IMG/VR virus record: IMGVR_UViG_3300025727_000011
Coordinates: 5,666 to 69,665 of that record
DNA length: 64,000 nt
Direction: 5' to 3' (one strand)
From: a virus
In this document: positions 36,523 to 51,472 of the stretch, in pieces
Position numbering within the stretch: the first letter of the stretch is position 1
Layout: each line of letters opens with the position of its first letter
Made by a program: the position numbers and the translations under genes
The notes under the pieces: model-generated
What the model was told of the DNA's origin: nothing
Databases searched by the model: none
The model's input: the letters and a program-made list of their open reading frames with translations, nothing else

Positions 36523-37083
36523 ATGAACAAGATCAGCAAACAAGATCGCAGCACCCTCATTCGGTTAGCTTCGTCCATGCCCGTAGGATCAGAGGAACGT
36601 CGTGCTGTACTCGTGGGGTTGAGCAAAACGTCTGGTCACCCTCTTGGTGACCGCGCTGCCGTGAATAAGGAAACCTACGAGTTGCTCGACATCGTGCTGT
36701 TTGTTGGTGTACGCGAATGGGAAAAGGCGGTAGGGAATTTCTATCTCAATGATTTGAGTAAGGCTTATGACCAACTCGGGGACTTTGAAAAGGCTCTGGG
36801 TCGGATGCGGAACGGCATCTGGGATCTTTACGGCGACTACGTTTCGCACTCGGATTACGAGGACTTCTACGACGAACTGACAGACTCCGGCTTCTATGCT
36901 TTGGAAACCGCTATCGAGGAGGCCGAGCACGATCTGACCCAGATGATCGACCGTGGTTGGGCCGACGACGGTTATGAAGACATGGTGCAAGAGGAGATCG
37001 AGGACACCATTCTCCCTGCCTTGGAGGAGACTATGCTTGATTTCAAACGGGAGTATGGCAGACCTCCTCGGATTAGGGGTTGA
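36523..37083 (+). CDS. Shared-leader protein with acidic cargo
   Basis: Starts MNKISKQDRSTLIRLASSMPVGSEERRAVLVGLSKTS, followed by a D/E-rich helical domain. Confidence 0.7.
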   Translation: MNKISKQDRSTLIRLASSMPVGSEERRAVLVGLSKTSGHPLGDRAAVNKETYELLDIVLFVGVREWEKAVGNFYLNDLSKAYDQLGDFEKALGRMRNGIWDLYGDYVSHSDYEDFYDELTDSGFYALETAIEEAEHDLTQMIDRGWADDGYEDMVQEEIEDTILPALEETMLDFKREYGRPPRIRG

Positions 37084-37084
37084 G

Positions 37085-38128
37085 ATGAGCCAACGTGACA
37101 AACAGGCGTATATGAACGCCACCCCGATGCAACGGGAAGTGGTGCGACAACGCCTATGTGACGTGTTGGCTTGTCTGCGGGCTTCATACCTCTCGTACCA
37201 GACGAGCCATTGGCAGGTTGTCGGTCAGTCTTTCTACGGCAACCACCTCCTGTTCCAACGACTTTATGAGTCGGTGCAGAAGCAGGTGGACGAGTTGGCG
37301 GAGAAGTTGGTCGGCTACCTCGGTCGTGAGGTTGTTGGCCTTGACCATCAAATGCAGCACATTTGGGGCTACACCCAGAAATGGTCACAGATCGACTGCC
37401 ACCACAAGCGGGGTTTGCAGTCAGAGATCGATCTACAAGCGGCGCTCAAGCGAGCCTACGACGGGATTAAGAAGATCAACGCCATGACCCTCGGTCTGGA
37501 TGACTGGATCATGGCGACCGCCAACGCCCATGAGGAGAACGAGTACCTGTTGCAACAGGCTCTCGCGCCGATTCCGAAGCAAGCGGCCAAGAAGGCCAGC
37601 ACTCCTATCTCTCCTTATTCTAATCGCCCCACCAAACTCCTGGCGGAAACCCCACAATATGCGTTGTGGCAGATCAAGTATGGGTCCAAGACCATGTGGG
37701 AGATCTCGGACCATTCGGGGCAGATGGTTGATCCTTATGGGACGGGTTTCCGTAAGAAGCGTGATGCGATGGAGGCATGGGAAACCGTGAGCAAAACCGC
37801 ATCCGGCGCACCGAGCGCCGAAGGGGACTTCTATAAGGCTCCCGACCAGAGTGCCGTGCTCGACTTCGCAAACTCCAACGCTATCTCTAACAGTGTTGAG
37901 GTAGTGGAAAGGGCATCACAAGAAGATCAGCTTGATATTCCCGAAGCTGAAGCAGTCGCTGAAGCAAAGGAAGCCCCTCCTACACCCTCTGAGATTGCAA
38001 AAGAGCCGGGTGGGGAAGCGGTCAGCACCTTGAATCAATACGTTATCAAATCGGAAGACCCGGTTGCCGAACAAGCGGTGAAGATGAACCGGGACCGCAT
38101 GGCGGCATGGCTCCGCGAACTCGGTTGA
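37085..38128 (+). CDS. Dps/ferritin-like domain protein with C-terminal extensions
   Basis: HWQVVGQSFYGNHLLFQRLYE...VDELAEK...HEENEYLL ferroxidase-type motif. Confidence 0.75.
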   Translation: MSQRDKQAYMNATPMQREVVRQRLCDVLACLRASYLSYQTSHWQVVGQSFYGNHLLFQRLYESVQKQVDELAEKLVGYLGREVVGLDHQMQHIWGYTQKWSQIDCHHKRGLQSEIDLQAALKRAYDGIKKINAMTLGLDDWIMATANAHEENEYLLQQALAPIPKQAAKKASTPISPYSNRPTKLLAETPQYALWQIKYGSKTMWEISDHSGQMVDPYGTGFRKKRDAMEAWETVSKTASGAPSAEGDFYKAPDQSAVLDFANSNAISNSVEVVERASQEDQLDIPEAEAVAEAKEAPPTPSEIAKEPGGEAVSTLNQYVIKSEDPVAEQAVKMNRDRMAAWLRELG

Positions 38129-38143
38129 CGGTATCTCTCCTAT
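38129..38143 (+). promoter_or_regulatory. Putative late promoter (CGGTA-N6-CTAT)
   Basis: Exact consensus immediately after the upstream stop. Confidence 0.65.
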
Positions 38144-38192
38144 CGGTCGCCCCACGGTAGAGTGACCCTCTCACTCACGGGAGGCTCCTGCC

Positions 38193-39422
38193 GTGTTCGC
38201 CAACCTTACCGAAGCCCTCAAACGGCGCATGATCCAAGAGATTCGGTACTTCTGGTCGAAAGACCCGCAGTATAAGGACACCCTGACTCCGAACATTCAA
38301 GGCCGATACTCGTTTGAGGAACGCCCTCAACAGGCGATCATCATGAAAGGGCAGTCAGCTTCCCCTTTCCAGTTGTCCGCTGATCACTTCCAAGGCACCA
38401 TCGTTTCCTACTGCTACTTGACCAAGGTGTATGGGCAGCGTGGCACCAGTATCGAGTGGGTGCGGGAGAACGGCACAGCCATCCGAGCCAACAACGGCAC
38501 CTTCCCATCCCCTCCCGGCGTCTACTACGTCGAGGTCCGAGTAGAGATAGTCGATGTTCGAGGGGTTCCCGAGGAACGGCTTGTGTTCTATGTGGATCCG
38601 TTGCTTGAGATCATTGACGAGACAGCAACCATGCTTGACCCACGGCTTTATGAGGTGGCCGCAGGTGATTTTCATCCTGGTAGTCTCCGAGTCTACGAGA
38701 TGCCGGGAAACATCCCGTATTACGAAGGGGTCAACTACTCGGCTGATCCTACGACAGGTCAGATCACTCTCGCTAACCCACTCCCCTCAAATACTTACTT
38801 GTCAGTGGATTATCGTTACACCACAGATAGTCGTGGACCTTTCCCGTTGCCCGAGAACGGGGCGAACGTCGAGGCCATTCCCGGTGTCGTGCTGGCATTC
38901 GGGCGCAGGGCTTATGACGGAGACATCATGGCGGTGGTCATAGGCGACCGGCGCGAGGATGTTGCTAGGGAATACGGCGGGCGATGGGAGATGAGCGTGG
39001 ACATGGACATCATGGCTCGTGATGTGTATGCCCAAGGTGAGATAACAGACCGGACTCTGATGTTCCTCTACACCGAGGCCCGTGAACGCCTTTCCACCGA
39101 GGGTATCGAGATCACGACCGCTAGTATGGGCGGTGAGGCAGAAGAGGTCTATGACGAGAATGGTGACGACTACTTCTACACGGCTTCGATTTCACTGTCG
39201 GTGATGACAGACTGGGCTATCCGAGTACCTATTGGTCGGACGTTGACTCGTGTGGAGACGAACACGGTGTCCGAGACTGAGATGGTGGCTGGACTCACTG
39301 ACGATCAGTTGGTCGAGATGGGTTCTCCGACCGGGTTGCAGTACACGGCTGACCTCGGACTCCGCGATCTCCGTGATCCGTGGTTCCGTGACAGGACGCG
39401 AAACTTCGATCTGATCCGGTAG
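38193..39422 (+). CDS. Putative neck / tail-completion structural protein
   Basis: Late promoter motif and GGAGG RBS; Ig-like insert (NYSADPTTGQITL); tail-terminator-like C-terminal fold inferred. Confidence 0.5.
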   Translation: MFANLTEALKRRMIQEIRYFWSKDPQYKDTLTPNIQGRYSFEERPQQAIIMKGQSASPFQLSADHFQGTIVSYCYLTKVYGQRGTSIEWVRENGTAIRANNGTFPSPPGVYYVEVRVEIVDVRGVPEERLVFYVDPLLEIIDETATMLDPRLYEVAAGDFHPGSLRVYEMPGNIPYYEGVNYSADPTTGQITLANPLPSNTYLSVDYRYTTDSRGPFPLPENGANVEAIPGVVLAFGRRAYDGDIMAVVIGDRREDVAREYGGRWEMSVDMDIMARDVYAQGEITDRTLMFLYTEARERLSTEGIEITTASMGGEAEEVYDENGDDYFYTASISLSVMTDWAIRVPIGRTLTRVETNTVSETEMVAGLTDDQLVEMGSPTGLQYTADLGLRDLRDPWFRDRTRNFDLIR

Positions 39423-39910
39423 TGCGTCTATTACTACAACTACATGTAAGTATCATTGGAGTGCTTTTATGTCCCGCTCACTTACCGCCTCTGACCGTAA
39501 AGCTCTGATTCGATTGGCCTCAACTCTCCCGAAGGGTAGCGACGAACGGAGGGCTGTACTCGCTGGGTTAATGGATTTGGGTGGCACGGGTACGACGGCA
39601 CAAGTACGGGAGGATATTGAGGAATTCCTTTCTTCTATCTTTGGTCACCAAATAAAAGTGATGAAGAGAGGGGACGTGATGGTGGTCCGTGAGGAGGGAA
39701 ACGATCATGGCACGTCCATCGAGATGGCGATGGACCTGGAAGGTCGTTGGACCATAAAGGCCCAGTTTGAAACTTCGGGAAAAGTGTCTCATATCCCTTA
39801 TGAAGACCACGATGAATATGCTCGGGATTTTGTTAGAGAGAGACTTGGGCCAATAAAGCAATGGATAGAGGTCTGACCTCGGTTTGGTCTGATCCGGTAG
39901 TGCGTCTATT
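39410..39910 (+). repeat. 23-bp perfect direct repeat (39410-39432 and 39888-39910) containing the late promoter motif
   Basis: TCTGATCCGGTAGTGCGTCTATT occurs twice, flanking ORF 39469-39876. Confidence 0.9.
39469..39876 (+). CDS. Shared-leader protein
   Basis: MSRSLTASDRKALIRLASTLPKGSDERRAVLAGL plus a ~100-aa unrelated domain. Confidence 0.75.
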   Translation: MSRSLTASDRKALIRLASTLPKGSDERRAVLAGLMDLGGTGTTAQVREDIEEFLSSIFGHQIKVMKRGDVMVVREEGNDHGTSIEMAMDLEGRWTIKAQFETSGKVSHIPYEDHDEYARDFVRERLGPIKQWIEV

Positions 39911-39946
39911 GTCCTCAACAAGCACCATGCTGTTGGGGGTTTAACG

Positions 39947-40771
39947 ATGCCATCGACCATTCGTGAAGGATCTCGCGGAAGCGATGTAATCCTCTGCCAA
40001 GACTCGCTCACGAAACATGGGTATCCATGTGACGCCGATGGGATTTTCGGATCCGGGACCGATGCAAAGGTCAAGTCCTTCCAAAAGGACAACGGTTTGG
40101 TGGTAGATGGCATCGTGGGATCAGGCACATGGGGCAAGCTCCTTGCAGATGCTCCCGAGGACGTGGGTATCGCCGCACCTGGACCTCTCCCTCCTGTAAT
40201 CGTGCAAGCTCAAGCCCTTGGGCTTGAGACGTGGGGCACCCCTTGGCGGCTCTGGTTGTTTGGTGTTCGCTCTCCGAATCGGAACGCCAACTCCTACGAC
40301 GATATGCTCGGTTGTGTTTATGTCGATGACGATGGGTTGTGGCAAGCACACTACTGGCCAGGAACCACAGACCCCGGCACATACTACTTGATCAACCCCA
40401 TGAACTCGGCGGGTTGCGCCATCCTGGTTGCGGGGCAGTACCTCGACACTTGGATGATTGATTTGCACGGAGGCAAGTACGAAGCCTTGTGTCAAAGGGC
40501 TGGGGAAGTGTCCGTGTACCGGGATGACAGCGGAGACGACAAGTTGGACCTCGATCCCCGCACCATCGCCACGGGCTACTTTGGGATCAATCTCCATGCC
40601 AGCACCCGTACCGAGGGTGCTACTTCGCAGTACGTCAATAAGTACAGCGCCGGATGCCAAGTTCACGCTTCGGCAGCGGGGTTCAAGAAAATGATGGAGT
40701 TGGCACACGCCCAGAAAAACAAGACGGGGAGAGACACGTTCTCGTATTCCTTGATGGACCAGTGGTGGTAA
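39947..40771 (+). CDS. Endolysin: peptidoglycan-binding domain plus catalytic domain
   Basis: GSRGSDV..Q...DGIFG..T...VK.FQ..NGL.VDGIVG..TW (PG_binding_1); C-terminal GINLH...SAGCQV. Confidence 0.85.
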   Translation: MPSTIREGSRGSDVILCQDSLTKHGYPCDADGIFGSGTDAKVKSFQKDNGLVVDGIVGSGTWGKLLADAPEDVGIAAPGPLPPVIVQAQALGLETWGTPWRLWLFGVRSPNRNANSYDDMLGCVYVDDDGLWQAHYWPGTTDPGTYYLINPMNSAGCAILVAGQYLDTWMIDLHGGKYEALCQRAGEVSVYRDDSGDDKLDLDPRTIATGYFGINLHASTRTEGATSQYVNKYSAGCQVHASAAGFKKMMELAHAQKNKTGRDTFSYSLMDQWW

Positions 40772-40789
40772 GTGTTCGATCTCCCCCCA

Positions 40790-41104
40790 ATGAATGTCCG
40801 TGTTGCCATGAGGCATGTGGTCCGTAAGGTCGATGACTTACGACCCCGAACGAAAACCAAACCTCGGTATATGCGGCTCATTGTCCATATGGAGCTTCCA
40901 TCAAAGGATGAATACCTACAAAAGGTATTGTCTACAGCGGCTCGGGCAACGGGATCAATCCCCTTTATCAGACGAACGGAGCTTGTTGAGACGGTTCTGG
41001 ACCTGCCTACCAGCCTTGACCAACGTAGGAAAGCGGTGAAGGCCATCAAGAACCTCCCTTTTGTGACTTCGGTTTATGCTGTGATGGGTCCACCTATCCG
41101 GTGA
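40790..41104 (+). CDS. Hypothetical protein (RVAMRH N-terminus)
   Basis: Follows a variant promoter at 40766-40780; start uncertain. Confidence 0.5.
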   Translation: MNVRVAMRHVVRKVDDLRPRTKTKPRYMRLIVHMELPSKDEYLQKVLSTAARATGSIPFIRRTELVETVLDLPTSLDQRRKAVKAIKNLPFVTSVYAVMGPPIR

Positions 41105-41108
41105 TCTT

Positions 41109-41270
41109 ATGTTGGATGCCTACATCATTGATCGCATCAGACGTGAGAGAGAGAAGGAGCGTCAACGACGCTCGGAAAAACGGCCTTCCATCCCCCTTCG
41201 GGAACCCCTTCACGAAACCCCTCCCTCTTCCCCTTCTCGGCGTGGGGGGGTGATTATAGAGTTGGAGTAG
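41109..41270 (+). CDS. 53-aa small protein (MLDAYIIDRIRRERE...RGGVIIELE), absent from the ORF track
   Basis: Hand-translated; fills the intergenic gap. Confidence 0.6.
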   Translation: MLDAYIIDRIRREREKERQRRSEKRPSIPLREPLHETPPSSPSRRGGVIIELE

Positions 41271-41298
41271 GGGGGTAGAGTGGGGGGCGGAGGTCATC

Positions 41299-41760
41299 GT
41301 GCCCATCTATGTTTTCACTTGTCAGTCGTGTGGGCTTCGGTTTGAGAAGCTGTATCGTCGTGTGTCTGACGATAGGGAGCACCCGTGTACGGAGTGTGGC
41401 GGCATAGGCACTCGACAGGTCACAGCAGCTTCCTTTTCCTTCAAACACCCGCAGAGTCAACTGAATGGGGCGCTACCTCCAAACACCGGCACATCAGATG
41501 ACTTCAATTTCGACAAAGCCATCGGGCGTGACGCCGCCAAGAAGTGGGGCAAGATCCATGAGAACAACGCCCGCAAGGACACTATCATCCGCGATGAGGC
41601 CAATCAGGGTCGTGGAATCACACGGGACCACCTCGTGAAAAAACGCGAAGGTGGCTACCGGGTCATTGAAGATTCCGAACGCAACGCCGTAAACGAACGA
41701 CGAGAGGCCGCTTTCAAGGTGTCGCAAGCGGCAACTGAACAAGCGAAAGACAAGAAATAG
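41299..41760 (+). CDS. FmdB-family zinc-ribbon protein
   Basis: MPIYVFTCQSCGLRFEKL...CTECG; GGAGG RBS. Confidence 0.8.
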   Translation: MPIYVFTCQSCGLRFEKLYRRVSDDREHPCTECGGIGTRQVTAASFSFKHPQSQLNGALPPNTGTSDDFNFDKAIGRDAAKKWGKIHENNARKDTIIRDEANQGRGITRDHLVKKREGGYRVIEDSERNAVNERREAAFKVSQAATEQAKDKK

Positions 41761-41770
41761 GGGCGGCCTT

Positions 41771-41785
41771 CGATACCTTCTTTAT
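41771..41785 (+). promoter_or_regulatory. Putative late promoter (CGATA-N6-TTAT)
   Basis: Variant motif ahead of three consecutive leader genes. Confidence 0.55.
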
Positions 41786-41817: not shown

Positions 41818-42885
41818 ATGTCTACCCTTTCTGCATCTGACCTCACCCATTTGACCCGTCTGGCGTCTTCGATGCCCGAAGGTAGCGTTCAACGAAGGGC
41901 TATCCTGACCGCACTTCGGGATCACAGAGCAGAACCAAAAACTGCGGGTCTGAACAAGAAAGCCTCTCGCAACCGCATTGGGGCGATCCTCACACGGAAA
42001 CGTATGTTGATCTCCGGGCGTGGTCGAACTGCCGCAATTCGTCTTGCTTCTATGATGCCGAAAGGCTCGGAGGAGCGACAAGTTCTTTTGAACGGGTTGC
42101 GGAAACGGGCGACGGTACGAACGGCGGCTGATCCGAAAGCGGCGGCTGCAAAGTGGGTTGAGGAAGCTCTGGTTGAGTTGGCCGAAGAGGAGGGTCTTGA
42201 CGCAGATGACCTCAAGGTTCGCGGCAAGACCGGATGGGGCTATGGGGTCAATGTTGAGGGGCGAGGGCGTGGTGACTCTGGTGAGTCGGAGTGGGCGCTC
42301 TTTGAGGATTGGGATGACGCCGAAAAGGAAGCCTATGATTACGTCAGGAACATGTTGGAGGAGGAGCCAGAGATGTTCAACCAAGATTGGTTGGAGAACT
42401 ACATGAGCGTCAGTTCGACCGATGCTCGGATCATCGGCGGTGAGGAGGCTGACAATCGTATTGACGGCATGGACGATGAGGATCTCCTTCGGAACGGTGA
42501 CCTGGAAGATAAATGGCAAGACTTGGAAGACGAGAAAGATGAGATCGAGTACGGAGAAGCTCGTGATGCCGACGATGCCGACGATGCCGCCCTCGATAAG
42601 CGTGTCGCACAGATCGAAAAAGAGCAGTCCAAGTTGATCGACGAGGCTCGGGACGAGGTTCTCCTCAACTACGCGGCTGAAGTCGAAGACCAACTCAACC
42701 GCGACCCCCTTGAGTGGTACCGCGAGTTGACCGGGGAGCGCGACATCCCAGACTGGATCAGCGTAGACGTTGAGAAGGCCGCGAAGGCTGCCCTCCGAGA
42801 TGATGGTGTTGCTCACTTCCTTGACAACTATGACGGAGACTCCACCGAACTCCCGTCTGGTGCAGTCGCCTTTGGCACCAACTAG
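41818..42885 (+). CDS. Double-leader protein with highly acidic cargo
   Basis: Two leader copies (LTRLASSMPEGSVQRRAILTAL; AIRLASMMPKGSEERQVLLNGL), then a D/E-rich domain ending DGVAHFLDNYDG. Confidence 0.75.
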   Translation: MSTLSASDLTHLTRLASSMPEGSVQRRAILTALRDHRAEPKTAGLNKKASRNRIGAILTRKRMLISGRGRTAAIRLASMMPKGSEERQVLLNGLRKRATVRTAADPKAAAAKWVEEALVELAEEEGLDADDLKVRGKTGWGYGVNVEGRGRGDSGESEWALFEDWDDAEKEAYDYVRNMLEEEPEMFNQDWLENYMSVSSTDARIIGGEEADNRIDGMDDEDLLRNGDLEDKWQDLEDEKDEIEYGEARDADDADDAALDKRVAQIEKEQSKLIDEARDEVLLNYAAEVEDQLNRDPLEWYRELTGERDIPDWISVDVEKAAKAALRDDGVAHFLDNYDGDSTELPSGAVAFGTN

Positions 42886-42893: not shown

Positions 42894-43295
42894 ATGAAGA
42901 CTCTCACCACATCTGATAGAAAAGCCTTGATTCGACTAGCTTCTACAATGCCTGTAGGAAGTGCTGATCGAAAGACGATCCTCAAGGGACTGAGCCGGAG
43001 TCGGGCAGTCGCAGCAGGAACTACACTTCTTAATCTACCAGAGTATAGAGTTGATATAGGTCCAAGCGACACGACTGAAATGGTTGCTGCAAAGGCTTTG
43101 AAGGCCGCGAATCAAGGTAAACTTGTACGATTGAGTCCAATCGGGACAGGACGACACCACCGTTATGCGATTTGGGTCAAAAACTCCCACCTCGAATACC
43201 TCACGGGAGGTCGATGGGGCATTGAGCCTTTAGGCCAGGGTAACCAGAGGACCATCGAGAGGATTGTCAGAGAATGGGTCAGAGACCCCAGATAA
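42894..43295 (+). CDS. Shared-leader protein
   Basis: MKTLTTSDRKALIRLASTMPVGSADRKTILKGL plus an unrelated domain. Confidence 0.75.
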   Translation: MKTLTTSDRKALIRLASTMPVGSADRKTILKGLSRSRAVAAGTTLLNLPEYRVDIGPSDTTEMVAAKALKAANQGKLVRLSPIGTGRHHRYAIWVKNSHLEYLTGGRWGIEPLGQGNQRTIERIVREWVRDPR

Positions 43296-43400
43296 CCACG
43301 GATAATGTTATGCAACCTTCTGATCGAAAAGCCTTGATTCGACTAGCTTCTACAATGCCTGTAGGAAGTGCTGATCGAAAGACGATCCTCAAGGGACTGA
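42912..43400 (+). repeat. 82-bp direct repeat (42912-42993 and 43319-43400) encoding the leader
   Basis: 81 of 82 nt identical by direct comparison. Confidence 0.9.
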
Positions 43401-43795
43401 AGGCTTCGGCAGACCGGTATGACACACCTGAAATGGATGTCGCACTGGACGTGCTTGGTGCTGCGTCACCGGGAATCCTCCGGTGGCTGAATGCCAATAC
43501 CAATCTGGGATGGAAAGCTACATACGCGGATGGTGCTGCACGGGGAGCACATATCTCTTTTGGGTTGAAGGCGTCCCAAACCTACACCGCCCAAGTCCCT
43601 CGGTACAACGGAGGGGGCTGGTGGAAGGTTGTTGTCCATCTCGGAGCCGAAGATGGCAAAGTGAATGTAGAGGTAGGTACCCCATATGAGCCGCGTAGAG
43701 GACCGAGGACGGTTTTCCCCAAAGATATGGATGCGTCAGTCTTGCGTTCTCCCGGCAAGCTACTCGCTCGGGCAAATCTACCCCTCAAGAAATGA
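43310..43795 (+). CDS. Shared-leader protein
   Basis: MQPSDRKALIRLASTMPVGSADRKTILKGLKAS plus an unrelated domain. Confidence 0.75.
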   Translation: MQPSDRKALIRLASTMPVGSADRKTILKGLKASADRYDTPEMDVALDVLGAASPGILRWLNANTNLGWKATYADGAARGAHISFGLKASQTYTAQVPRYNGGGWWKVVVHLGAEDGKVNVEVGTPYEPRRGPRTVFPKDMDASVLRSPGKLLARANLPLKK

Positions 43796-43928: not shown

Positions 43929-46900
43929 ATGGCTATCATTCCCGGCTCGATTTACGCACCTCCCGGTGTCTACACCCGCACCCTCTTTGAAGATCCTCTG
44001 CAAGGACTCGCAGCGTCCGTTCGTTTGCCCCTCATCATGGGCACCGGCTCGGAGATCCTGTTCCAAGACTCTCTGGAGCTTGTCCGTGGGTCGTCCTCGT
44101 CTGTTGATCAGCGAGTGGTGCAGGAAGACGAAACCGGACGTGCCGTGGTCAGCATCAGCTTGGCTGGTGAGGTCACGCTGGGTGCCTTCGATGGTGTAAT
44201 CAATCAGGTGCAGGTCAAGCACTTCCCCATCGTGAACGGTAACGGCTCCGGTACGACCGCTACTGATGCGTCCAAGGTCAACGTCACCGTAAACGGTGAG
44301 CCGGTGGTGGTTCTCGCCATCAATGGTGCCAAGGGCATTCTGACCCTCTCTGTGACCCCCGAGGCCACCGATGAGGTCAAGGCCACCTATTTCTTCAACC
44401 GCACCGACACCCTGATCACGGACACGGTGAGCGATCAGATCAGCGGCGATGCACCAGAAATCTTTGGCGAGGTCGGCCAGAACTACACCGTCATCACAGG
44501 CGTCAACGATGAGTTGGTGTTCACTGTCGATGACGCGAGCACGGTCAATGTCACGATCTCGGCATCCCCTCCCGTTGGTTGGACCGCTGCACAGGTGGCG
44601 GCGTTCATCAACAGTGCGGCTACGGGAACTTCCCTTGTCGCAGCAACCGCCGTAAACAACCTCGGGCTGACGGTACTTCATCTGACCGCAGACCGGGACA
44701 TCACGGTAGGCAACGGGTCGGCAAACACTACCTTCGGTCTGTCAAGTGGTGCGACCACTGCTCGTAATAAGGTGTTCTACACGTTCCAGAACCCCATTGT
44801 GGACGGTTCCAACGGCGGCGTCACTACCACCGACCCCGCTGACGTGACTGTGAAGGTGAACGGCACTCAAATCATCCCGACTTCCGTGGATGGGCAGAGT
44901 GGTGCGGTGACCCTCCCCTTCGCTCCCGAGATTGGAGCCGTGGTCACCATCCAGTATTATTTCAACTCCTGGCAGGACACGTTCGACTACCTCGCCAACC
45001 GTGGTGTCACCGAAGTCACTCTCTGTGGCATCACCCCTGATCGTAACGACTACATCGACGGTGCTGACTTCGTGCTCAAGGACGACAAGATCCTATGGGG
45101 CACCGCAGTCACCATTGAGGGTGGTGAGTACACGGCGGGTGGCACCATCTTCGACGATACACAGGTCAGCGCGACTCTCGTGGACGTTCGCCAGTACCTT
45201 GCAGCTTGCTCCGCTGTGGTCAACACTGCGGTCAATCCTCCGGTCGAGGGCCGAACGCAGTTCACCCTGCCGCTTCAGCCGACGACGGGCAACGGACGTA
45301 GCACCCCACTCGGTGCCGAGACGTACTCCGAAGTGGCCAACGGTCGCATCGACCTTCCCACGGATCGGCCTGATCTTGTGTTCGCCTACTGGGGATACTC
45401 GGTAGAGGACGCTCTGGAGCGCGGTCGCGTCACTGTGACCAAGGTGGACTCCGCAACGAGCACCATTACGTTGGCCGACGTGGTTCCGGTTGGAGCCTCG
45501 GTCTACGCCACCTTCTACTACAACACGTTGGTTGACCAGGACTACTCGGTCGAGTGCATCACCGCTGGCGCTTCCGGCGTCGGCACCTACACCCTGAAGA
45601 ACGAAGCCGGGACCGTCCTCCTGACTCCACAGTTCGGAAGCAAGGGCGCTGCTCTGGCCACCGTCACGGTCGAGTTCCCCAGCGGCTCCGAGCGCACCCC
45701 TGACCTTCGGTTTGAGGCTCCGTTCGACGCTACTGGGTTTACAGGTCCCGTCGAGGAGGATGTGACCATCACCTTCGCCTCGCAAGATGCGACCCTGGCG
45801 AAGTACGCGGTTCCGGGTTCCGGCCCCTACTACACGATCAACGGGTCCAGCGACACGTTGGACATCGCGGTCAACGGTGCCACGATTTCTACGGACCTCG
45901 GTGATCCCACGGGAACGGGAACGGGTTTCTTGTCCACCCTTACCGGTGACGAGGTTGCGTACACCGCAGCGAGCGGGAACACCACCTACGTCATTGACGC
46001 CACCAACAATGCGGTAGACCTCCAGATTGACGGGTTGCTCATCCAAGCCGTCGCCAATGCTGGAGCCACCCAGGACATCACGGACTACGGTGAGGCCATC
46101 AATCGCGCTGCCTTTGGTGAGTTCGCTACAGCCCAAGCCGCCACCATTGCCGCTGAGATCACCCTCGCGGCGGCTACATCTTCGGATGTGGACGATTACT
46201 ACGTCGGCTGGGAGATCAAGATTTCGGCTGGAACCTCAGCCGGGGATAAGCGCACCATTACGGCTTACAACGGCACAACCAGGGTTGCTACAGTCAGTGT
46301 GCCCTTCGCAGCAGCCCCGGATGCCACTTCTACCTACTACCTCTATGATCCTGCTACCCGTCCACAGATCGCAGGAGCCACACGCTTCCTGTCTCCTGTA
46401 GACCTGAACGGCGGCTTCGCTACATTGAATCTGTCCTATTCGGGCAACGTGACCGCACCGACTGCGTTGGTTTGCGCGGTTGCACCAGGCCCTCACGCCT
46501 CGGCAACAGCACTCGCCATAGCGGTCCAAGCTGGAGTAGACGCAGCCATCCTTGCCGCCTTTGCGTTCAATGACCGGTTGGAGATTGATGTTTCGGCTGA
46601 CTCCAGTGGTCGCTTGGTGTTGACCCTTGGGGCACACCCGTTGGATACGACACTGGCCACCTTGGAGGTAGTCGCAGACGGAGTCCCCGCTGCGGACTTT
46701 GCGCTCCTCGCTGGATTCGACATCGCCACGACGGGCGGGGCGCAGGCCAAGCTCCAGAACCTCCCCATTGCCAGCACGTTCGCCTTCACCGGAGCGGTGA
46801 CCGGCCAGAAGGTCTACGACCGACTGATCCTCACCAACCGCATCACCCCCGGTCAATCCACGGACGGACAGTTCGTGCTTGACCAGTGCCAGTTGAAAGT

Positions 46901-49043
46901 CCTCGGAGGCACAGGTTCCGTCCAGTCTGGACTCACCGCCAACGAGGAAGCCGATGCAGGTATCCGTGCAACCGTCATGCAGCCCACCATCTTCGGTGAG
47001 GTTGGTTTGTCGGGCGGGCAGGATGCAGCGGGCAACCCGGTCGTTACCTTCTTCGCAGACGGTGGCACGACCCCACAGAACAACGTGTTCAAGTTCACGT
47101 TTGAAGGCACCCCCGTTGTGGTCGTCTTCGCCCAGAGTGATGGCACGACAGCCATCACTCTGGGCGGCTCCGCAGATGTGCCCCTCACTGATCCCAGTGG
47201 CGCGGCAGCGGGTCCGATCATTACCCAGATCAATACAGAGATGACGGCAGCCGGGATCGCTGTAACCGCGATCCAAGAGGGTGCCGGTATCCGATTCCGA
47301 GGTGCGTCGTCGGCTTCGTCCGCAACCATCGTGATCGGAGACGGCAATGCCAACACCATCCTCGGCTTCTCTACGGGCGACATCGTGTACCGCACGGTTC
47401 TCTCTGTAGAAACTCTGGTGAGCGGTCTGATGGCCGCAACAGCCTTCACGGCTGTCGCTCTCGCCAAGACCAAGCGTGATGGCGCGAACGCCGAGTACCT
47501 GTTCATTCAGAGTCTCGGTACGGCGGGTGCAGGCACCACGTCTAGCCTGGCCTTTGTGACCAGCACGGCGCTGCTTCCGGGCACTGGCCTCGGTGTCATC
47601 AACGGTGACGGCAACGTGGGCGAGACAGCGATCGATGGCTACTTCGTTACCTCGTCTGATCCTGTCAATGGTTCGGGCACCTCCGATACGTCGGTACTCA
47701 ACACGGGTACGGGACAAGACGGCATTGTCGGCCAGACCTATCGGGATCTGGTGACTGGTTTGACCTTCTCCGTTCTCCCACGCACCGGAGGCACCGCCTA
47801 CCCGGTCGGAGTCACGTCTACCGTGACGTTCACCGTGCGGGCGAATGTGACTACGGACAGCAACCTGCCAGTGAACACCGTTCCCGGCATTGAGTTGTAT
47901 GTCTCCAACACCTCTGGGGTCACGGTTGGCGATACCGCCATCGCGGCGACCTATGAGAAGGGAGGCAACCAACCGTCCGTTGGTGACGTGTACTACGCCA
48001 GCTACAACTACCTGAAGCAGGACTACACGACGCAGTTGTTCACCAAGCAGTCCTCGATTGAGGCAGCTTACGGTGCGGCTACTCCAGAAAACCCGGTCAG
48101 TCTCGCCTCCTATCTGGCGATCTTGAACGGCGCGGTCCTGCTTGCAGTTAAGCAGATCAAGAAGGACGTTGATCTGGATGCTGACGGCACGTTCGACACA
48201 GCCTCGACCAATGCGTACCTCGCAGCGATTGATGAAGTGGAAGGAGCCACCCCAGGCGGGCTGTTCCCTGACACCATCACCCCGCTCAAGGGTGATTCGC
48301 TTGAGTTGTTCCAGTACCTCGCACGGCACTGTGACATCCAGAGCAGCATCCGTTACCGCGCCGAGCGCACTGCAATCTGCGGTTACTCGGCAGGTACACA
48401 GCCGACTGATGCGGGCAACATCGCACAGGCGGTGGCTCGTAGCCGGATGCGGCTCCTGTACCCCGACATCATGACCCTCTCTCTGTCGCGGGCTGACGGC
48501 ACCACAGATACCTACCTCGTGGACGGCACCTACTTCGCCTCTGCATGGGTCGGTAACCGTGCTGCCCCGACCATCGACGTTGCGACTCCGTGGACGCGGG
48601 GCCGGGTGTTCGGCTTTGATGAGTTGGCCCGCACGCTCGATGCGGTTCAGCAGAATCAGGTTGCGGTTCGCGGTGTGTCGGTATTCGCACAGCGGCAGTC
48701 GATTATCGAGTGTCGCCACGGTCTGACCACAGACATGACCAACGTGCTGACCAAGACCCCGACCGTGACCACCATCGCAGACGAGGTGCAGCGTCAGGCC
48801 CGGTCAACACTGGATCGGTTCATCGGCAAGAAGTTCCTTTCCGCTGTCACCGGAGACATCGAAGGTCAGTTGTCCGTCACGCTCAAGAAGCTGGTCGCCG
48901 CACAGATCATCGCCGCCTTCACCGGAGTCTCGGCCAACGTGTCTCCCGATGATCCCACGGCTGCGGAAGTCGAGGCTTACTACCAGCCGATTTTTCCATT
49001 GTTATATATTATCGTGACATTCAACCTGCGTAGCAGTTTGTAG
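43929..49043 (+). CDS. Contractile tail sheath protein (~1704 aa)
   Basis: N-terminal YAPPGVYTRT; C-terminal sheath core (RHGLTTD...IADEVQRQ.R..LDRFIG...YYQPIFPLLYI.VTF); many inserted beta domains. Confidence 0.85.
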   Translation: MAIIPGSIYAPPGVYTRTLFEDPLQGLAASVRLPLIMGTGSEILFQDSLELVRGSSSSVDQRVVQEDETGRAVVSISLAGEVTLGAFDGVINQVQVKHFPIVNGNGSGTTATDASKVNVTVNGEPVVVLAINGAKGILTLSVTPEATDEVKATYFFNRTDTLITDTVSDQISGDAPEIFGEVGQNYTVITGVNDELVFTVDDASTVNVTISASPPVGWTAAQVAAFINSAATGTSLVAATAVNNLGLTVLHLTADRDITVGNGSANTTFGLSSGATTARNKVFYTFQNPIVDGSNGGVTTTDPADVTVKVNGTQIIPTSVDGQSGAVTLPFAPEIGAVVTIQYYFNSWQDTFDYLANRGVTEVTLCGITPDRNDYIDGADFVLKDDKILWGTAVTIEGGEYTAGGTIFDDTQVSATLVDVRQYLAACSAVVNTAVNPPVEGRTQFTLPLQPTTGNGRSTPLGAETYSEVANGRIDLPTDRPDLVFAYWGYSVEDALERGRVTVTKVDSATSTITLADVVPVGASVYATFYYNTLVDQDYSVECITAGASGVGTYTLKNEAGTVLLTPQFGSKGAALATVTVEFPSGSERTPDLRFEAPFDATGFTGPVEEDVTITFASQDATLAKYAVPGSGPYYTINGSSDTLDIAVNGATISTDLGDPTGTGTGFLSTLTGDEVAYTAASGNTTYVIDATNNAVDLQIDGLLIQAVANAGATQDITDYGEAINRAAFGEFATAQAATIAAEITLAAATSSDVDDYYVGWEIKISAGTSAGDKRTITAYNGTTRVATVSVPFAAAPDATSTYYLYDPATRPQIAGATRFLSPVDLNGGFATLNLSYSGNVTAPTALVCAVAPGPHASATALAIAVQAGVDAAILAAFAFNDRLEIDVSADSSGRLVLTLGAHPLDTTLATLEVVADGVPAADFALLAGFDIATTGGAQAKLQNLPIASTFAFTGAVTGQKVYDRLILTNRITPGQSTDGQFVLDQCQLKVLGGTGSVQSGLTANEEADAGIRATVMQPTIFGEVGLSGGQDAAGNPVVTFFADGGTTPQNNVFKFTFEGTPVVVVFAQSDGTTAITLGGSADVPLTDPSGAAAGPIITQINTEMTAAGIAVTAIQEGAGIRFRGASSASSATIVIGDGNANTILGFSTGDIVYRTVLSVETLVSGLMAATAFTAVALAKTKRDGANAEYLFIQSLGTAGAGTTSSLAFVTSTALLPGTGLGVINGDGNVGETAIDGYFVTSSDPVNGSGTSDTSVLNTGTGQDGIVGQTYRDLVTGLTFSVLPRTGGTAYPVGVTSTVTFTVRANVTTDSNLPVNTVPGIELYVSNTSGVTVGDTAIAATYEKGGNQPSVGDVYYASYNYLKQDYTTQLFTKQSSIEAAYGAATPENPVSLASYLAILNGAVLLAVKQIKKDVDLDADGTFDTASTNAYLAAIDEVEGATPGGLFPDTITPLKGDSLELFQYLARHCDIQSSIRYRAERTAICGYSAGTQPTDAGNIAQAVARSRMRLLYPDIMTLSLSRADGTTDTYLVDGTYFASAWVGNRAAPTIDVATPWTRGRVFGFDELARTLDAVQQNQVAVRGVSVFAQRQSIIECRHGLTTDMTNVLTKTPTVTTIADEVQRQARSTLDRFIGKKFLSAVTGDIEGQLSVTLKKLVAAQIIAAFTGVSANVSPDDPTAAEVEAYYQPIFPLLYIIVTFNLRSSL

Positions 49044-49062
49044 CCCCAAGACAATCGAGCAT

Positions 49063-49100
49063 AGAACCTACGCTTTCGACGAATCGAGGGTGTAGGTTCT
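49063..49100 (+). terminator. Long hairpin after the sheath gene (terminator-like)
   Basis: AGAACCTACGCTTTCGA-CGAA-TCGAGGGTGTAGGTTCT; weak U-tract. Confidence 0.5.
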
Positions 49101-49181
49101 AACCCTAAACGGGGCGGGTTTCACGAAAACGGTAGATAGTAGCCCTCCACTCGGGTACAGTCCGGGTGGAGGACTTCGTTT

Positions 49182-50270
49182 ATGGACTGTTCAATTTGTG
49201 GGTTCACCGTTGCCAACGTGCGCGGCCTCGCTTCTCATTTCCGGCACCAGTCGGACACCCATCCCGACTACGAGACGTGGAAGTCTGACCAGAAGTGGGC
49301 GGGCAAGATCGAGGACGAGGACTTCGTTCGTTGTCGGGAGTGCGGCTTTCGGTCTGCCAGCCTTGCACGGCACTTGAAGTCATCCCACGGATTCACGGCT
49401 GACGAGTACCGGGTCAAGCACGGGTCGGATGCCTTGACCCGCAATCGCCGCACGGAGGCAAAGCGTCGGGAGGGCATTAGGAACGCGAAGCAAGATCGGA
49501 CGGGTACGAAGCAAGTGCCTTGCTCTACCTGTGGGGTGGAGATGACAGTCCACAAGCTGTCCCAGTCGAATCTCAAATGTGGTGTGTGTAAGCAGGTGGA
49601 GAAGGAAGCACGGTGGGAGGGTCTGGAGGACGGGTTCGACTATGTGACCTGTCTCGACTGTGGTTACCGGGCTGTGAACCTGACCTCGCACATGCAGAAC
49701 GCTCACCCTGACTACCGGGAGCGTCACCCTGACGCGCAGATCAACGCGGAGGTTTCCCGCTCTCGTATCGGTGGGAGCGGGCAGAAGATCGACCTCACAG
49801 AAGCCGACCTGACCCCATACATGGACGGCAAGGGATGTGTTGAGGTGGCGAAGGCCGCAGACCATCTTGGGTGTTCGTGGCCTGTTGTCCTGCGGACCTG
49901 CCGTGCTCTCGGCATCCCGACACGGAACAAGTTGGCGACCCAGAAGCGGGTGTTGGACATGGTGGCTCAGGTGTTGGGTGAGCCATACAAGTGGGAGTGG
50001 TCACACCCGGAAATCAAGAACCCGGAGACGGGGTACACGCTGTTCTTCGATGGGTACTTCCCGAAGTCGAAGTTGATCTGCGAGTACCACGGTCGGCAGC
50101 ACTTTGAGATGATCCCCTACTGGCACAAGACGGAGGAGGTCTTTCAGCGGCGTGTGGCACTGGAAGCCTACAAGGTTCAGCGTGCTCGTGATCTTGGGTA
50201 TCGGATCATTGAAGTCCGTTTCGATGATCCGTTGACCTCGGTGGATTTCTACCGGGGCTTGCTTCGGTGA
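49182..50270 (+). CDS. Zn-finger (C2H2/MucR-like) plus Vsr/PD-(D/E)XK-type endonuclease, putative homing endonuclease
   Basis: Repeated CxxC...LxxH...H modules; C-terminal FDGYFP...ICEYHGRQH...GYRIIEVRF. Confidence 0.7.
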   Translation: MDCSICGFTVANVRGLASHFRHQSDTHPDYETWKSDQKWAGKIEDEDFVRCRECGFRSASLARHLKSSHGFTADEYRVKHGSDALTRNRRTEAKRREGIRNAKQDRTGTKQVPCSTCGVEMTVHKLSQSNLKCGVCKQVEKEARWEGLEDGFDYVTCLDCGYRAVNLTSHMQNAHPDYRERHPDAQINAEVSRSRIGGSGQKIDLTEADLTPYMDGKGCVEVAKAADHLGCSWPVVLRTCRALGIPTRNKLATQKRVLDMVAQVLGEPYKWEWSHPEIKNPETGYTLFFDGYFPKSKLICEYHGRQHFEMIPYWHKTEEVFQRRVALEAYKVQRARDLGYRIIEVRFDDPLTSVDFYRGLLR

Positions 50271-50383
50271 CTTCCCTGTGCTACCTTCTGTGGGCTGACT
50301 GATTCTGCTAGACGGAGTTGGGCAGCAGGCATCTTGGACCCTTCACCGGGTCGAGGGTGTTGGGGTGGGGTTGGTTCCTCACT

Positions 50384-50566
50384 CATCCCGCAAGGGATGC
50401 CCCGGTACAGGCAAGGCTCTGGTCTGTTCCACAGTGGCAAGGTCGGTCGGGCGCTTTACGCTCCCAAGACTGACCCGAGGCTTCGGCCTCTACAACATGC
50501 CGAAATAGTCAATCGTCCCGGTTGACTCCCAAACCCCCAGTAAGGTCTCGTCCACTGGGGGTTTGG
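50384..50566 (+). ncRNA. Candidate structured RNA (unidentified)
   Basis: Run of nested and adjacent hairpins with cGCAAg and cUUCGg tetraloops in a non-coding gap. Confidence 0.35.
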
Positions 50567-50590
50567 TCTATCTGGGGCTTGCTCCGTCGT

Positions 50591-51472
50591 CGGTAGCCTC
50601 TCTATCGCTCCGGTAAGGTCAACAGATTCGGAGAACCCTCTCATGGCTAAGACCCTTACCGCTACCGACCGATCGGCTTTGATCCGGCTTGCTTCCACTA
50701 TGGATAAGGGATCTCCCGAGCGAAAGGCGATCCTCGCTGGGTTGAAGAAGGCTTCCGGCGAATCAAACATCCCCGGCAAGCACATTCTCGACAACGCCAA
50801 GGTGTACGACGATGCCATCGTGAAAGACAAAGCCAAGGTGTCCGGCAATGCCAAGGTGTCCGGCAATGCCGAGGTGTCCGAATATGCCAAGGTTTATGGC
50901 AACGCCGTCGTGAGGGGCAATGCCCAGGTGGACGGCGATGCCTGGGTGTCCGGCAATGCCCAGGTGGACGGCGATGCCTGGGTGTTCGGCAATGCCAAGA
51001 TGTTCGACAACGCCGAGGTGTCCGGCAATGCCGTGGTGTCCAGCAATGCCATCGTGAAAGACAAAGCCCAGGTGTCCGGCAATGCCCAGGTGTCCGGCAA
51101 TGCCATCGTGAAAGACAAAGCCCAGGTGTCCGGCAATGCCCAGGTGTCCGGCAATGCCGAGGTGTCCGAATATGCCAAGGTTTATGGCAACGCCGTCGTG
51201 AGGGGCAACGCCTGGGTGTCCGGCAACGCCCAGGTGTACGACAACGCCCAGGTGTACGGCGATGCCCATGTGCTCGACAACGCCAGGGTTGAAGGCAAGG
51301 CCGAGGTGTCCGGCAAGGCCAGGGTTGAAGGCAAGGCCGTGATTGGGGGTACTGCCGTTATTCTAGGAGGGAAGTGGAACGGATCGGAAGGTCCAATCAT
51401 GGAAGGGACGTGGAAGTCCCCGACCGAGAGGATTCGTTAGCCGCAGCAAAGCGGTAGCCTTCCTATCGCTCC
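50591..51472 (+). repeat. 21-bp near-perfect direct repeat (50591-50611 and 51452-51472) containing the late promoter motif
   Basis: CGGTAGCCT[CT/TC]CTATCGCTCC flanks ORF 50643-51440. Confidence 0.75.
50643..51440 (+). CDS. Shared-leader protein with hexapeptide-repeat (left-handed beta-helix) cargo
   Basis: MAKTLTATDRSALIRLASTMDKGSPERKAILAGLKKAS plus about 30 [VI]SGNA[QKE] hexads (18-bp tandem DNA repeats). Confidence 0.8.
   Translation: MAKTLTATDRSALIRLASTMDKGSPERKAILAGLKKASGESNIPGKHILDNAKVYDDAIVKDKAKVSGNAKVSGNAEVSEYAKVYGNAVVRGNAQVDGDAWVSGNAQVDGDAWVFGNAKMFDNAEVSGNAVVSSNAIVKDKAQVSGNAQVSGNAIVKDKAQVSGNAQVSGNAEVSEYAKVYGNAVVRGNAWVSGNAQVYDNAQVYGDAHVLDNARVEGKAEVSGKARVEGKAVIGGTAVILGGKWNGSEGPIMEGTWKSPTERIR

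What the first reader, a model, noticed from the sequence alone, without database searches (positions are those of the whole stretch)
36523..51440. A shared ~30-aa N-terminal leader on six unrelated late proteins: candidate capsid-targeting / cargo-loading system
Seen in sequence: ORFs starting at 36523, 39469, 41818 (two copies), 42894, 43310 and 50643 begin with the same motif, consensus (L)[TS]xxDRxALIRLASx[ML]PxGSxERx[AT][IV]LxGL. It is often followed by KTS, KAS, KKAS, KTA or RTA, and then by dissimilar domains (acidic helical, small alpha/beta, hexapeptide beta-helix). All lie in operons with the late promoter motif. Established analogy: T4 internal proteins carry an N-terminal capsid-targeting sequence removed by the prohead protease, and encapsulins load cargo through short peptides. 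Inference: this is a portable helical-hairpin address label that routes diverse effectors into the procapsid for co-injection with the DNA. I know of no named family for it.
Basis: partly seen in the sequence, partly recalled or inferred. Interest (0 to 1): 0.9.

Follow-up and report, generated by a model that had tools for sequence, protein, structure and literature searches.

The report
Shared N-terminal tag in marine megaphages
Six late genes of a giant marine phage start with the same ~30-residue helical hairpin, an unnamed tag found on over a thousand unrelated phage proteins, which most likely sends them into the phage head, though this is untested.

Summary
Seven copies of a ~31-aa motif (SDRxALIRLASxLPxGSxERKAILxGL) sit in six + strand ORFs (HMM E 1e-19 to 1e-35; next best hit E 0.4).

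The contig is a ~15%-complete fragment of a marine megaphage with a Bacillus-phage-G-type capsid protein. The motif has no Pfam, PHROG, NCBIfam or PDB match. It still hits 1,604 protein clusters, almost all unnamed.
- It starts within the first 12 residues in 91 of 94 single-copy proteins.
- 88 downstream parts fall into 75 unrelated groups.
- Related megaphage contigs carry 7-24 copies each.
- A close relative (LR745208.1) has none, but has 11 copies of a divergent variant tag. The two tag types are mutually exclusive.

AlphaFold predicts a confident helix-loop-helix. The tag is basic and the scaffold is very acidic. Tag genes share a promoter-like motif with the head-assembly operon.

My best reading, at about 45%, is a procapsid-loading tag analogous to the T4 capsid targeting sequence. 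Nothing here shows packaging, cleavage or injection. Within this scan the motif was noted only on this same window, not on other DNA.

The parts
36523..37083 (+). Tag-bearing ORF 1 (186 aa). The tag covers 36523-36654. The downstream part is acidic (net -22).
39469..39876 (+). Tag-bearing ORF 2 (135 aa). The tag covers about 39475-39603. AF2 gives H7-19, a loop and H25-36, then a low-confidence alpha/beta domain.
41818..42885 (+). Tag-bearing ORF 3 (355 aa) with two tag copies (41818-41952 and 42001-42129), followed by an acidic helical part (net -50).
42894..43295 (+). Tag-bearing ORF 4 (133 aa). The tag covers 42894-43025.
43310..43795 (+). Tag-bearing ORF 5 (161 aa from ATG 43310; an alternative ATG lies at 43274). 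Tag DNA at 43319-43400 is 81/82 identical to 42912-42993.
50643..51440 (+). Tag-bearing ORF 6 (265 aa). The tag covers 50649-50777. The downstream part is a YdcK/hexapeptide beta-solenoid built of 18-bp tandem repeats.
34620..36434 (+). 604-aa protein just upstream of the first tag gene. It shares a ~45-aa module (residues about 518-565) with 22 of the 216 tag-search hits. It carries only a degenerate tag-like stretch near 35289.
34573..34587 (+). Promoter-like motif CGGTA-N6-CTAT before the 604-aa gene and tag ORF 1 operon.
39417..39431 (+). Promoter-like motif before tag ORF 2. A near-identical 28-nt repeat lies at 39883-39910 before the endolysin gene.
39895..39909 (+). Promoter-like motif before the endolysin gene. 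Tag ORFs 3-5 lie downstream in the same gene row.
50591..50605 (+). Promoter-like motif before tag ORF 6.
1..755 (+). 3' part of the acidic scaffold-like gene (contig 5284-6420, net charge -48). Its conserved CIRLASAML stretch lies just upstream of the window.
1610..2482 (+). Major capsid protein (phage-G type, phrog_2522). The prohead protease gene lies upstream of the window at contig 3832-5268.

Best explanation
The motif is a self-contained, basic helix-loop-helix tag of about 30 residues. A clade of marine megaphages with a phage-G-type capsid puts it at the start of dozens of otherwise unrelated late proteins.

Proposed mechanism (inferred, not shown):
1. The tag docks its bearer onto the internal assembly core of the procapsid. 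The likeliest partners are the very acidic scaffold and/or the C-terminal extension of the prohead protease.
2. The proteins are thereby enclosed before DNA is packaged.
3. The prohead protease may then trim them.
4. They leave the head with the DNA at infection.

Proteins with several tags, and polyprotein-like chains of tag and cargo units, would load several units at once or bridge several docking sites.

Shown here: the module exists, is portable, is N-terminal, folds as a predicted hairpin, is phage-restricted, is present in many copies, and comes in lineage-specific variants.

Inferred: the partner, packaging, cleavage and injection.
For: 1. The module is portable.
- It hits 1,604 clusters at E<=1e-3.
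- It starts at or before residue 12 in 91 of 94 single-copy proteins.
- 88 downstream parts form 75 BLAST groups.
- 46 of 47 strong hits in 26 viral loci lie 6 residues or fewer after a Met.

2. It is present in many copies per genome. Counts are 7, 9, 24, 7 and 12 in records that are 15-79% complete. In G002 the 24 copies lie in 19 ORFs.

3. It is phage-restricted.
- It has no Pfam, PHROG, NCBIfam or PDB family.
- Only one true hit was found among the genomes of 185,579 species. That hit is a contig with homologues of two window genes.

4. It goes with one capsid lineage. The same capsid protein (87-92% identical) is present in all 5 tag-bearing records whose sequence shows a capsid gene.

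5. There are lineage-specific tag variants that do not mix.
- LR745208.1 (capsid protein 84% identical) has 0 canonical and 11 variant tags.
- G000, G002, G004 and G007 have 0 variant tags.
- The variant aligns to the canonical tag in the same N-terminal register (hhalign 66%, P 5.6e-5).
- One variant-tag gene sits between the scaffold and decoration genes.

6. AF2 predicts the hairpin at pLDDT 88-98, followed by a low-confidence linker.

7. The charges are complementary. The tag has a median net charge of +4 whatever the charge of the cargo, and the scaffold is -48.

8. The promoter-like motif (9 observed, 0.09 expected) heads the head-assembly operon, the endolysin gene and the tag genes.

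9. A prohead protease and a scaffold are present. The protease carries a ~170-aa C-terminal extension that Tunturi_5 and phage G lack, and those two phages also lack the tag.

10. A tag-like 7-residue pattern occurs outside tag ORFs only in the scaffold and the protease extension (2 observed, 0.034 expected; the pattern was chosen after seeing them). The scaffold stretch is conserved in 5 of 5 genomes.

11. Tag and cargo units are fused in frame to a homologue of the window's 1406-aa polyvalent protein (P0018).

12. Cargo includes an RNA ligase, DUF2958 and L5 gp82-like domains.

13. The precedent is T4, where diverse internal proteins share only a capsid targeting sequence that places them in the scaffolding core (PMC3012670, passages read).
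Against: - There are no virion proteomics, no structure of a complex and no expression data.
- The resemblance to the scaffold is not significant. hhalign aligns only 9 columns at probability 2.8%. HMM E-values are 0.4-0.6, although the scaffold is the top non-tag hit.
- The protease does not appear among the top 30 hits of a neutral helix-1 HMM. Its resemblance rests on a pattern chosen post hoc.
- Internal and C-terminal tag copies are common among high-scoring proteins: 170 of 360 domains start after residue 12, although some of those are miscalled starts. This does not fit a simple removable N-terminal propeptide.
- A strict K/R-K/R/T-A/T-S 'cleavage' motif follows only 13 of 360 tags.
- Tag genes in G002 are scattered over the genome on both strands. 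What lies next to them was not examined.
- Most cargo has no recognisable function. Only 2 of 17 G002 proteins have any Pfam family. 'Effector' is therefore unproven.
Confidence: 0.45

Rival explanations
1. It is a general docking or co-assembly tag for a structure that is not the capsid interior. The hairpins would bundle with each other or with multi-tag hub proteins. This would gather many client proteins into one intracellular phage complex or compartment.
For: - Proteins with 2-4 tags, including copies at both ends, are frequent among the best hits.
- Tandem tags exist, for example w41818.
- The tag is a small amphipathic hairpin that is unlikely to be stable alone.
- Cargo such as an RNA ligase is not a classical virion protein.
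- Tag genes are dispersed in G002.
Against: - No such linear localisation tag is known for phage compartments (from my own knowledge).
- Tag genes share the promoter-like motif with the head operon and the endolysin gene.
- A variant-tag gene lies inside the head module of LR745208.1.
- Tags are fused to a polyvalent-type protein.
Confidence: 0.2
2. It is an anchor that displays variable domains on the outside of the virion, on the capsid surface or the tail, like decoration or fibre adaptor modules.
For: - One cargo is a beta-solenoid that matches PHROG tail-fibre and baseplate families.
- Tag genes lie among very large fibre-like genes.
- The capsid lineage is shared.
Against: - Cargo is mostly small (median 105 aa) and belongs to 75 unrelated groups.
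- Cargo includes enzymes such as RNA ligase.
- 7-24 copies per partial genome is far more than known decoration systems have.
- Internal tags occur in polyprotein-like chains.
Confidence: 0.08
3. It is a small nucleic-acid-binding hairpin. It would tether its bearers to phage DNA, or act as a common DNA-binding head on many small regulators.
For: - The conserved exposed residues are basic (R9, R14, R26, K/R27, then K-K) and the median net charge is +4.
- 1 of 17 G002 tag proteins matches the Fusellovirus VP2 family. From my own knowledge, VP2 is a virion DNA-binding protein.
Against: - There is no match to any Pfam, NCBIfam or PDB DNA-binding family.
- The 5-6-residue Pro/Gly loop is unlike a classical helix-turn-helix turn.
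- Dozens of paralogues with an almost invariant 'recognition' surface would all bind the same target.
- DNA-bound proteins cannot pass the portal with the DNA during packaging (general knowledge).
Confidence: 0.08
4. It is a regulatory tag recognised by a protease or chaperone, for timed degradation or folding, and has no role in localisation.
For: It is N-terminal, conserved and independent of the cargo. T4 propeptides also recruit chaperonins (passage in PMC10052503).
Against: - A structured, near-invariant 30-aa hairpin is more than known degrons need.
- Multi-copy and C-terminal tags are unexplained by this idea.
- Mutually exclusive lineage-specific variants argue for a phage-encoded partner.
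Confidence: 0.05

Closest known systems
T4 capsid targeting sequence (CTS) of internal proteins IPI-III and Alt
   Same: A short N-terminal peptide is the only thing shared by a diverse set of proteins. A prohead protease and a scaffolding core are present. [quoted passage not shown]
   Different: - The tag is about three times longer and is predicted to be a folded helix-loop-helix.
- It goes with a different capsid and protease lineage (phage-G type).
- There are tens of cargo genes per genome rather than a handful.
- Internal and C-terminal copies exist.
- There are lineage-specific variants.
- Packaging and cleavage are unproven.
- Sequence relatedness to the T4 CTS was not tested, because no T4 sequence was fetched.
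N-terminal propeptides of head and ejection proteins in giant phiKZ-like phages (SPN3US, phiKZ, 201phi2-1)
   Same: These are giant phages whose heads carry many internal proteins. N-terminal propeptides of 20-254 residues are removed by the prohead protease. The protease itself loses a C-terminal propeptide (PMC10052503, passages).
   Different: - Those propeptides are not one shared near-invariant motif.
- The phage lineage is different.
- No cleavage data exist here.
Encapsulin cargo-loading peptides
   Same: A short portable peptide directs unrelated cargo into an HK97-fold shell. A ferritin/Dps-like gene sits next to a tag gene.
   Different: - The shell here is a phage major capsid protein (phrog_2522, weak PF05065). 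No encapsulin family came up in the Pfam scan.
- The tag is a longer N-terminal hairpin.
- The ferritin-like protein carries no tag.
- Features of encapsulin peptides are recalled from memory, not tested.
Coat-binding helix-turn-helix of phage scaffolding proteins (P22 type)
   Same: It is a small basic helical hairpin that could dock on capsid-assembly proteins. The hairpin is predicted by AF2.
   Different: - In P22 it is the C-terminal end of the scaffold itself (recalled from memory).
- Here the hairpin is on cargo proteins.
- The partner is unknown.
Polyvalent proteins of phages and conjugative elements
   Same: These are modular chains of unrelated domains thought to travel with the DNA. 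The window has one such protein (ART-PolyVal, DUF4258). A homologue carries tag and cargo units in frame.
   Different: The tag is not one of the Pfam families reported for these proteins in the scans run here. Most tag proteins are small single-cargo proteins.

Membership tests
T4-type capsid targeting sequence system | One short N-terminal peptide shared by otherwise unrelated proteins of one phage | tested here: met
   There are 7 copies in 6 ORFs. The motif is N-terminal in 91 of 94 single-copy proteins, and 88 cargos form 75 groups.
T4-type capsid targeting sequence system | The peptide is necessary and sufficient to place proteins in the scaffolding core of the prohead | not testable with these tools
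   This needs fusion and packaging experiments or virion proteomics.
T4-type capsid targeting sequence system | The peptide is removed by the prohead protease at a defined site | tested here: inconclusive
   A protease gene is present. The candidate basic-Ala-Ser site is enriched in the scaffold, with 4 observed and 0.19 expected. It follows only 13 of 360 tags.
T4-type capsid targeting sequence system | Sequence homology to the T4 CTS | not tested
   No T4 sequence was fetched. The PHROG and Pfam scans gave no T4 family.
Encapsulin cargo system | The shell protein belongs to the encapsulin family and is not part of a tailed virion | tested here: not met
   The shell protein matches phage major head families (phrog_2522 at 1.3e-50; PF05065 weakly). 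It sits with a protease, a scaffold and fibre-like genes.
Encapsulin cargo system | A short terminal peptide on the cargo binds the inner face of the shell | not testable with these tools
   No complex prediction tool was available.
Any named protein family (Pfam, PHROGs, NCBIfam, PDB sequences) | A significant profile match over the tag | tested here: not met
   There is no family over residues 1-40 in any of the 6 proteins. The best PDB sequence hit has E 0.76.
Helix-turn-helix DNA-binding domains | A match to a DNA-binding HTH family | tested here: not met
   No HTH family was found at E<=1 in Pfam or E<=0.1 in NCBIfam.
Scaffold-derived motif (homology of the tag to the phage's own scaffold) | A significant profile-profile match | tested here: not met
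   hhalign aligns 9 columns at probability 2.8%. The HMM E-value is 0.4-0.6.
Variant tag of LR745208.1 as a member of the same tag family | A profile-profile match in the same N-terminal register and the same multi-copy use | tested here: met
   hhalign gives 66%, P 5.6e-5 over 26 columns. There are 11 copies, at residues 1-30 of the four ORFs read through. Homology is probable, not certain.

The most novel reading that the evidence does not exclude
Marine megaphages use a structured, portable 30-residue address tag. It comes in lineage-specific versions that do not mix. It loads dozens of unrelated proteins, including enzymes and polyprotein-like chains, into the head for delivery with the DNA. 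The tag docks on the acidic scaffold or the protease tail. This would be a new class of capsid-loading signal and by far the largest cargo set known for any virus. A rarer and bolder alternative, which is not excluded, is that the tag addresses proteins to a non-capsid phage compartment.
Probability: 0.4. Interest if true: 0.85.

Novelty: new variant of a known kind. Interest (0 to 1): 0.72.

Why it matters
How giant phages fill their very large heads with proteins, and what those proteins do on arrival in the host, is largely unknown outside T4 and the phiKZ group.

This near-invariant tag gives three things:
- a simple sequence handle to list candidate head cargo in uncultured megaphages, with over a thousand unannotated protein clusters;
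- a testable docking hypothesis, tag against scaffold or protease tail;
- possibly a compact tag for loading foreign proteins into phage capsids.

If the tag is not a capsid signal, it is still a large unnamed protein module. It deserves a family entry and an experiment.

Tried and rejected
- Named families: the Pfam, PHROG, NCBIfam and PDB-sequence searches found nothing over the tag.
- Literature: a search for the six-letter core LIRLAS gave 7 papers, none of them on phages judging by their titles and abstract openings; I did not open them. Searches on capsid targeting sequence, huge phages, phage G proteomics and Tunturi phages gave no description of this tag in the listings. I read passages only of PMC3012670 and PMC10052503. 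Supplements were not opened.
- Isolated phages: tblastn of the tag against 50,697 phage records found nothing. Megablast of the region found nothing.
- Homology of the tag to the scaffold is rejected as unproven.
- The idea that K-K-A-S marks the protease site is kept only as a weak lead. It is striking in the scaffold, and KKAS occurs only in the scaffold, two tag proteins and the ferritin-like protein. It follows only 13 of 360 tags and precedes 23 of 170 internal tags. Outside tags it is about 2-fold enriched, in non-independent homologues.
- Signal peptide, RiPP leader and RNA-level element were considered and dropped. There is no hydrophobic stretch. The cargos are 45-317-aa proteins. DNA identity between copies is only 61-65%.
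- The ESM Atlas gave no usable lead for w42894.
- No fold search was run. The w39469 model is of low confidence and a 30-aa hairpin is too small to search with.
- I could not inspect 3-D contacts between the two tags of w41818. Only per-residue confidence and secondary structure are returned.
- Analogous shared N-termini were not seen in the ~25-kb stretches around the capsid genes of Tunturi_5 and phage G. The rest of those genomes was searched only with the canonical profile.
- Sequencing runs: no RNA holder was listed.
- The metagenome-contig scan was not used.

Full report
**What is in the window.**
- The ORF list shows six + strand ORFs that begin with the same stretch. They start at 36523, 39469, 41818 (two copies), 42894, 43310 and 50643.
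- A scan of all six frames of the whole contig for the four-residue core found 18 occurrences. Seven of them lie in the full motif, all on the + strand.
- A 31-column HMM of the seven copies, run with all filters off on 1,494 six-frame segments, recovers exactly these six ORFs (E 1.1e-34 to 3.1e-19). The next hit has E 0.4.
- The copies share 61-65% of their DNA. The exception is 42912-42993 and 43319-43400, which are 81 of 82 identical. The motif is therefore kept at the protein level, with one recent duplication or conversion.
- Observation: confirmed.

**What the contig is.**
- The 'genome' is a single 69,665-bp IMG/VR virus record with an estimated completeness of 15%.
- Just upstream of and at the start of the window lies a head module. 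It holds a prohead protease (phrog_18299), an acidic scaffold-like protein (net charge -48), a small protein and the major capsid protein (phrog_2522).
- The capsid protein is 84% identical to that of the 485-kb uncultured phage LR745208.1. It is 50% identical to Tunturiibacter phage Tunturi_5 (309 kb) and 38% to Bacillus phage G (498 kb).
- Near-identical DNA stands in marine or seawater metagenome runs of at least two studies beyond the possible source.
- The window is therefore part of a marine megaphage of the phage-G capsid lineage.

**How wide the motif is.**
- No family covers it in Pfam, PHROGs or NCBIfam. The best PDB sequence hit has E 0.76.
- A profile of the seven copies nevertheless finds 1,604 representative proteins at E<=1e-3 and 666 at E<=1e-10, among 1.84 billion.
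- It finds 1,034 proteins in the 90%-identity collection. Of the 120 listed, the only names are 'hypothetical protein' or unrelated automatic labels, and 11 have any precomputed Pfam domain.
- Of 94 hit proteins with a single copy, 91 have the motif starting at residue 12 or earlier. The 88 downstream parts of at least 40 aa (median 105 aa) fall into 75 BLAST groups.
- In 26 IMG/VR loci, 46 of 47 strong hits lie no more than 6 residues after a Met.
- Cargo with a recognisable domain includes RNA ligase, DUF2958, L5 gp82-like and beta-solenoid repeats.
- Among the genomes of 185,579 prokaryote species, the two search patterns found one true tag. It is on an 18-kb MAG contig that also encodes homologues of the window's 1714-aa and 362-aa proteins, so it is a phage fragment. 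Three other hits matched half the motif only.

**Copies per genome and capsid lineage.**
- With the window contig as positive control (7 hits), related records give 9 hits (113 kb, 25% complete), 24 (297 kb, 67%), 7 (141 kb, 31%) and 12 (288 kb, 79%).
- In the 297-kb record the 24 copies lie in 19 ORFs. In 16 of them the first copy directly follows a Met. Only 2 of the 17 ORFs scanned have any Pfam family and 4 of 17 any PHROG.
- The same capsid protein (87-92% identical) is present in 5 of 10 tag-bearing records searched. The other five are 12-46% fragments in which no capsid gene was found. I did not look for other capsid types in them.

**A variant tag in a close relative.**
- LR745208.1 has no canonical tag. 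The same tool does find things in that record.
- Four ORFs in ~90 kb of it share another N-terminal stretch (consensus MTTLRSKLIRLAHxNPxLRPxLLPLLKEA).
- The whole record holds 11 copies of this variant.
- The variant is absent from the window contig and from three canonical-tag records.
- The variant aligns to the canonical profile in the same register (hhalign probability 66%, P 5.6e-5, 26 columns).
- One variant-tag gene lies between the scaffold and decoration genes.
- Tunturi_5 and phage G have neither the canonical tag nor an obvious shared N-terminus near their capsid genes.

**Shape and chemistry.**
- AF2 models residues 6-18 and 24-38 of w41818 as two helices joined by a 5-residue loop, at pLDDT 88-98. 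The second copy has the same form.
- w39469 gives H7-19 and H25-36, a low-confidence linker and a weakly modelled alpha/beta domain.
- Invariant or nearly invariant positions are the hydrophobic core, two Ser helix caps, the Pro-x-Gly loop and several Arg/Lys residues.
- The median net charge of the tag is +4, whether the cargo is acidic (-50, -22) or basic (+5).

**Links to head assembly. All of these are circumstantial.**
- The motif CGGTA-N6-CTAT occurs 9 times in the window (0.09 expected) and 10 times in the contig.
- It lies 44-63 nt upstream of the first gene of the head operon, the 604-aa gene that heads the operon of tag ORF 1, the 409-aa conserved gene, tag ORF 2, the endolysin gene (with tag ORFs 3-5 downstream) and tag ORF 6.
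- The scaffold carries a stretch (CIR-L/I-A-S/T-A/S-ML) that is conserved in 5 of 5 genomes. It is the best non-tag hit of both tag HMMs, but it is not significant (E 0.4-0.6; hhalign 9 columns, 2.8%).
- A residue-class pattern written after seeing these stretches occurs outside tag ORFs only in the scaffold and in the protease's C-terminal extension (2 observed, 0.034 expected).
- That extension of about 170 aa is present in all five tag-bearing genomes compared. It is missing from the proteases of Tunturi_5 and phage G.
- The protease is not among the top 30 hits of the neutral helix-1 HMM.

**Multi-tag proteins.**
- Among the best-scoring hits many proteins have 2-4 tags, at the N-terminus, inside and at the very C-terminus.
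- Some read like chains of tag and cargo units (P0003, P0151).
- P0018 is a homologue of the window's 1406-aa polyvalent protein with two tag units added in frame.
- The window's 604-aa protein shares a ~45-aa module with 22 of the 216 proteins in hand. In relatives, a C-terminal tag often follows that module.
- These facts fit a binding module better than a simple removable propeptide.

**Verdict.**
- The sequence observation is solid. It reveals a large, unnamed, phage-restricted module.
- The capsid-loading reading is the best available at about 45%. It rests on analogy with the T4 capsid targeting sequence (PMC3012670, passages) and with giant-phage propeptides (PMC10052503, passages), and on the circumstantial links above.
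- A non-capsid docking role, surface display and nucleic-acid binding remain open.
- No paper found in the searches run describes the tag.

Noticed in passing
whole contig (window 1-64000 plus 5,665 bp upstream): The record is only about 15% of a megaphage genome by CheckV. Its capsid protein is of the Bacillus phage G / Tunturi_5 / LR745208.1 type. Near-identical DNA occurs in marine metagenome runs of several studies.
   Followed up: partly
L028:18713-19117, L028:26340-27395, L032:39466-40537 (LR745208.1): LR745208.1 uses a divergent N-terminal tag (11 copies) in place of the canonical one. One such gene lies between its scaffold and decoration genes.
   Followed up: yes
window 36170-36315 (residues about 518-565 of the 604-aa protein): A second short conserved module, containing an acidic D-x-D-G-D-G-type loop, is shared with 22 of the 216 proteins returned by the tag searches. 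A C-terminal tag often follows it. Its function is unknown.
   Followed up: partly
contig 3832-5268 (upstream of the window); L043, L044, L045, L028: The prohead protease has a ~170-aa C-terminal extension that the Tunturi_5 and phage G proteases lack. Its extreme C-terminus carries a tag-like helix, and the LR745208.1 copy even contains the tag's six-residue core.
   Followed up: partly
window 37088-38128: A ferritin/Dps-like protein (PF00210, phrog_3636) is encoded directly after the first tag gene in a late operon. It has no tag but holds one of the seven KKAS sites of the proteome, at a likely domain boundary.
   Followed up: partly
L046:319-1332 (G002): A tag protein whose cargo repeats the tag's end motif (G-L-K-T-A-S) three times, away from any hairpin. 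This may point to a separate functional site, such as a cleavage site.
   Followed up: no
G002 tag proteins (alignment A9): One of 17 matches the Fusellovirus VP2 capsid family (E 1.1e-7). One matches phrog_2774, the same PHROG that the window phage's prohead protease hits. I could not identify which members these are.
   Followed up: partly
L039 (MAG contig labelled Actinomycetota): This 18-kb binned contig encodes homologues of the window's 1714-aa and 362-aa proteins plus a tag gene. It looks like a megaphage fragment binned with a bacterial genome.
   Followed up: partly
window 50735-51374: The beta-solenoid cargo of tag ORF 6 is built of 18-bp tandem units. 22 registers of a 262-nt repeat were found.
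   Followed up: no
window 38193-39422: This is an acidic 409-aa protein with no family. It is strongly conserved in relatives (79%, 64% and 44% identity) and has its own promoter-like motif. It is probably a core virion or assembly protein.
   Followed up: partly
contig 45-2786 (upstream of the window): A 913-aa protein with a eukaryotic-type topoisomerase IB catalytic core at its start. It occupies the position that an annotated 'DNA ejection protein' holds in Tunturi_5.
   Followed up: no
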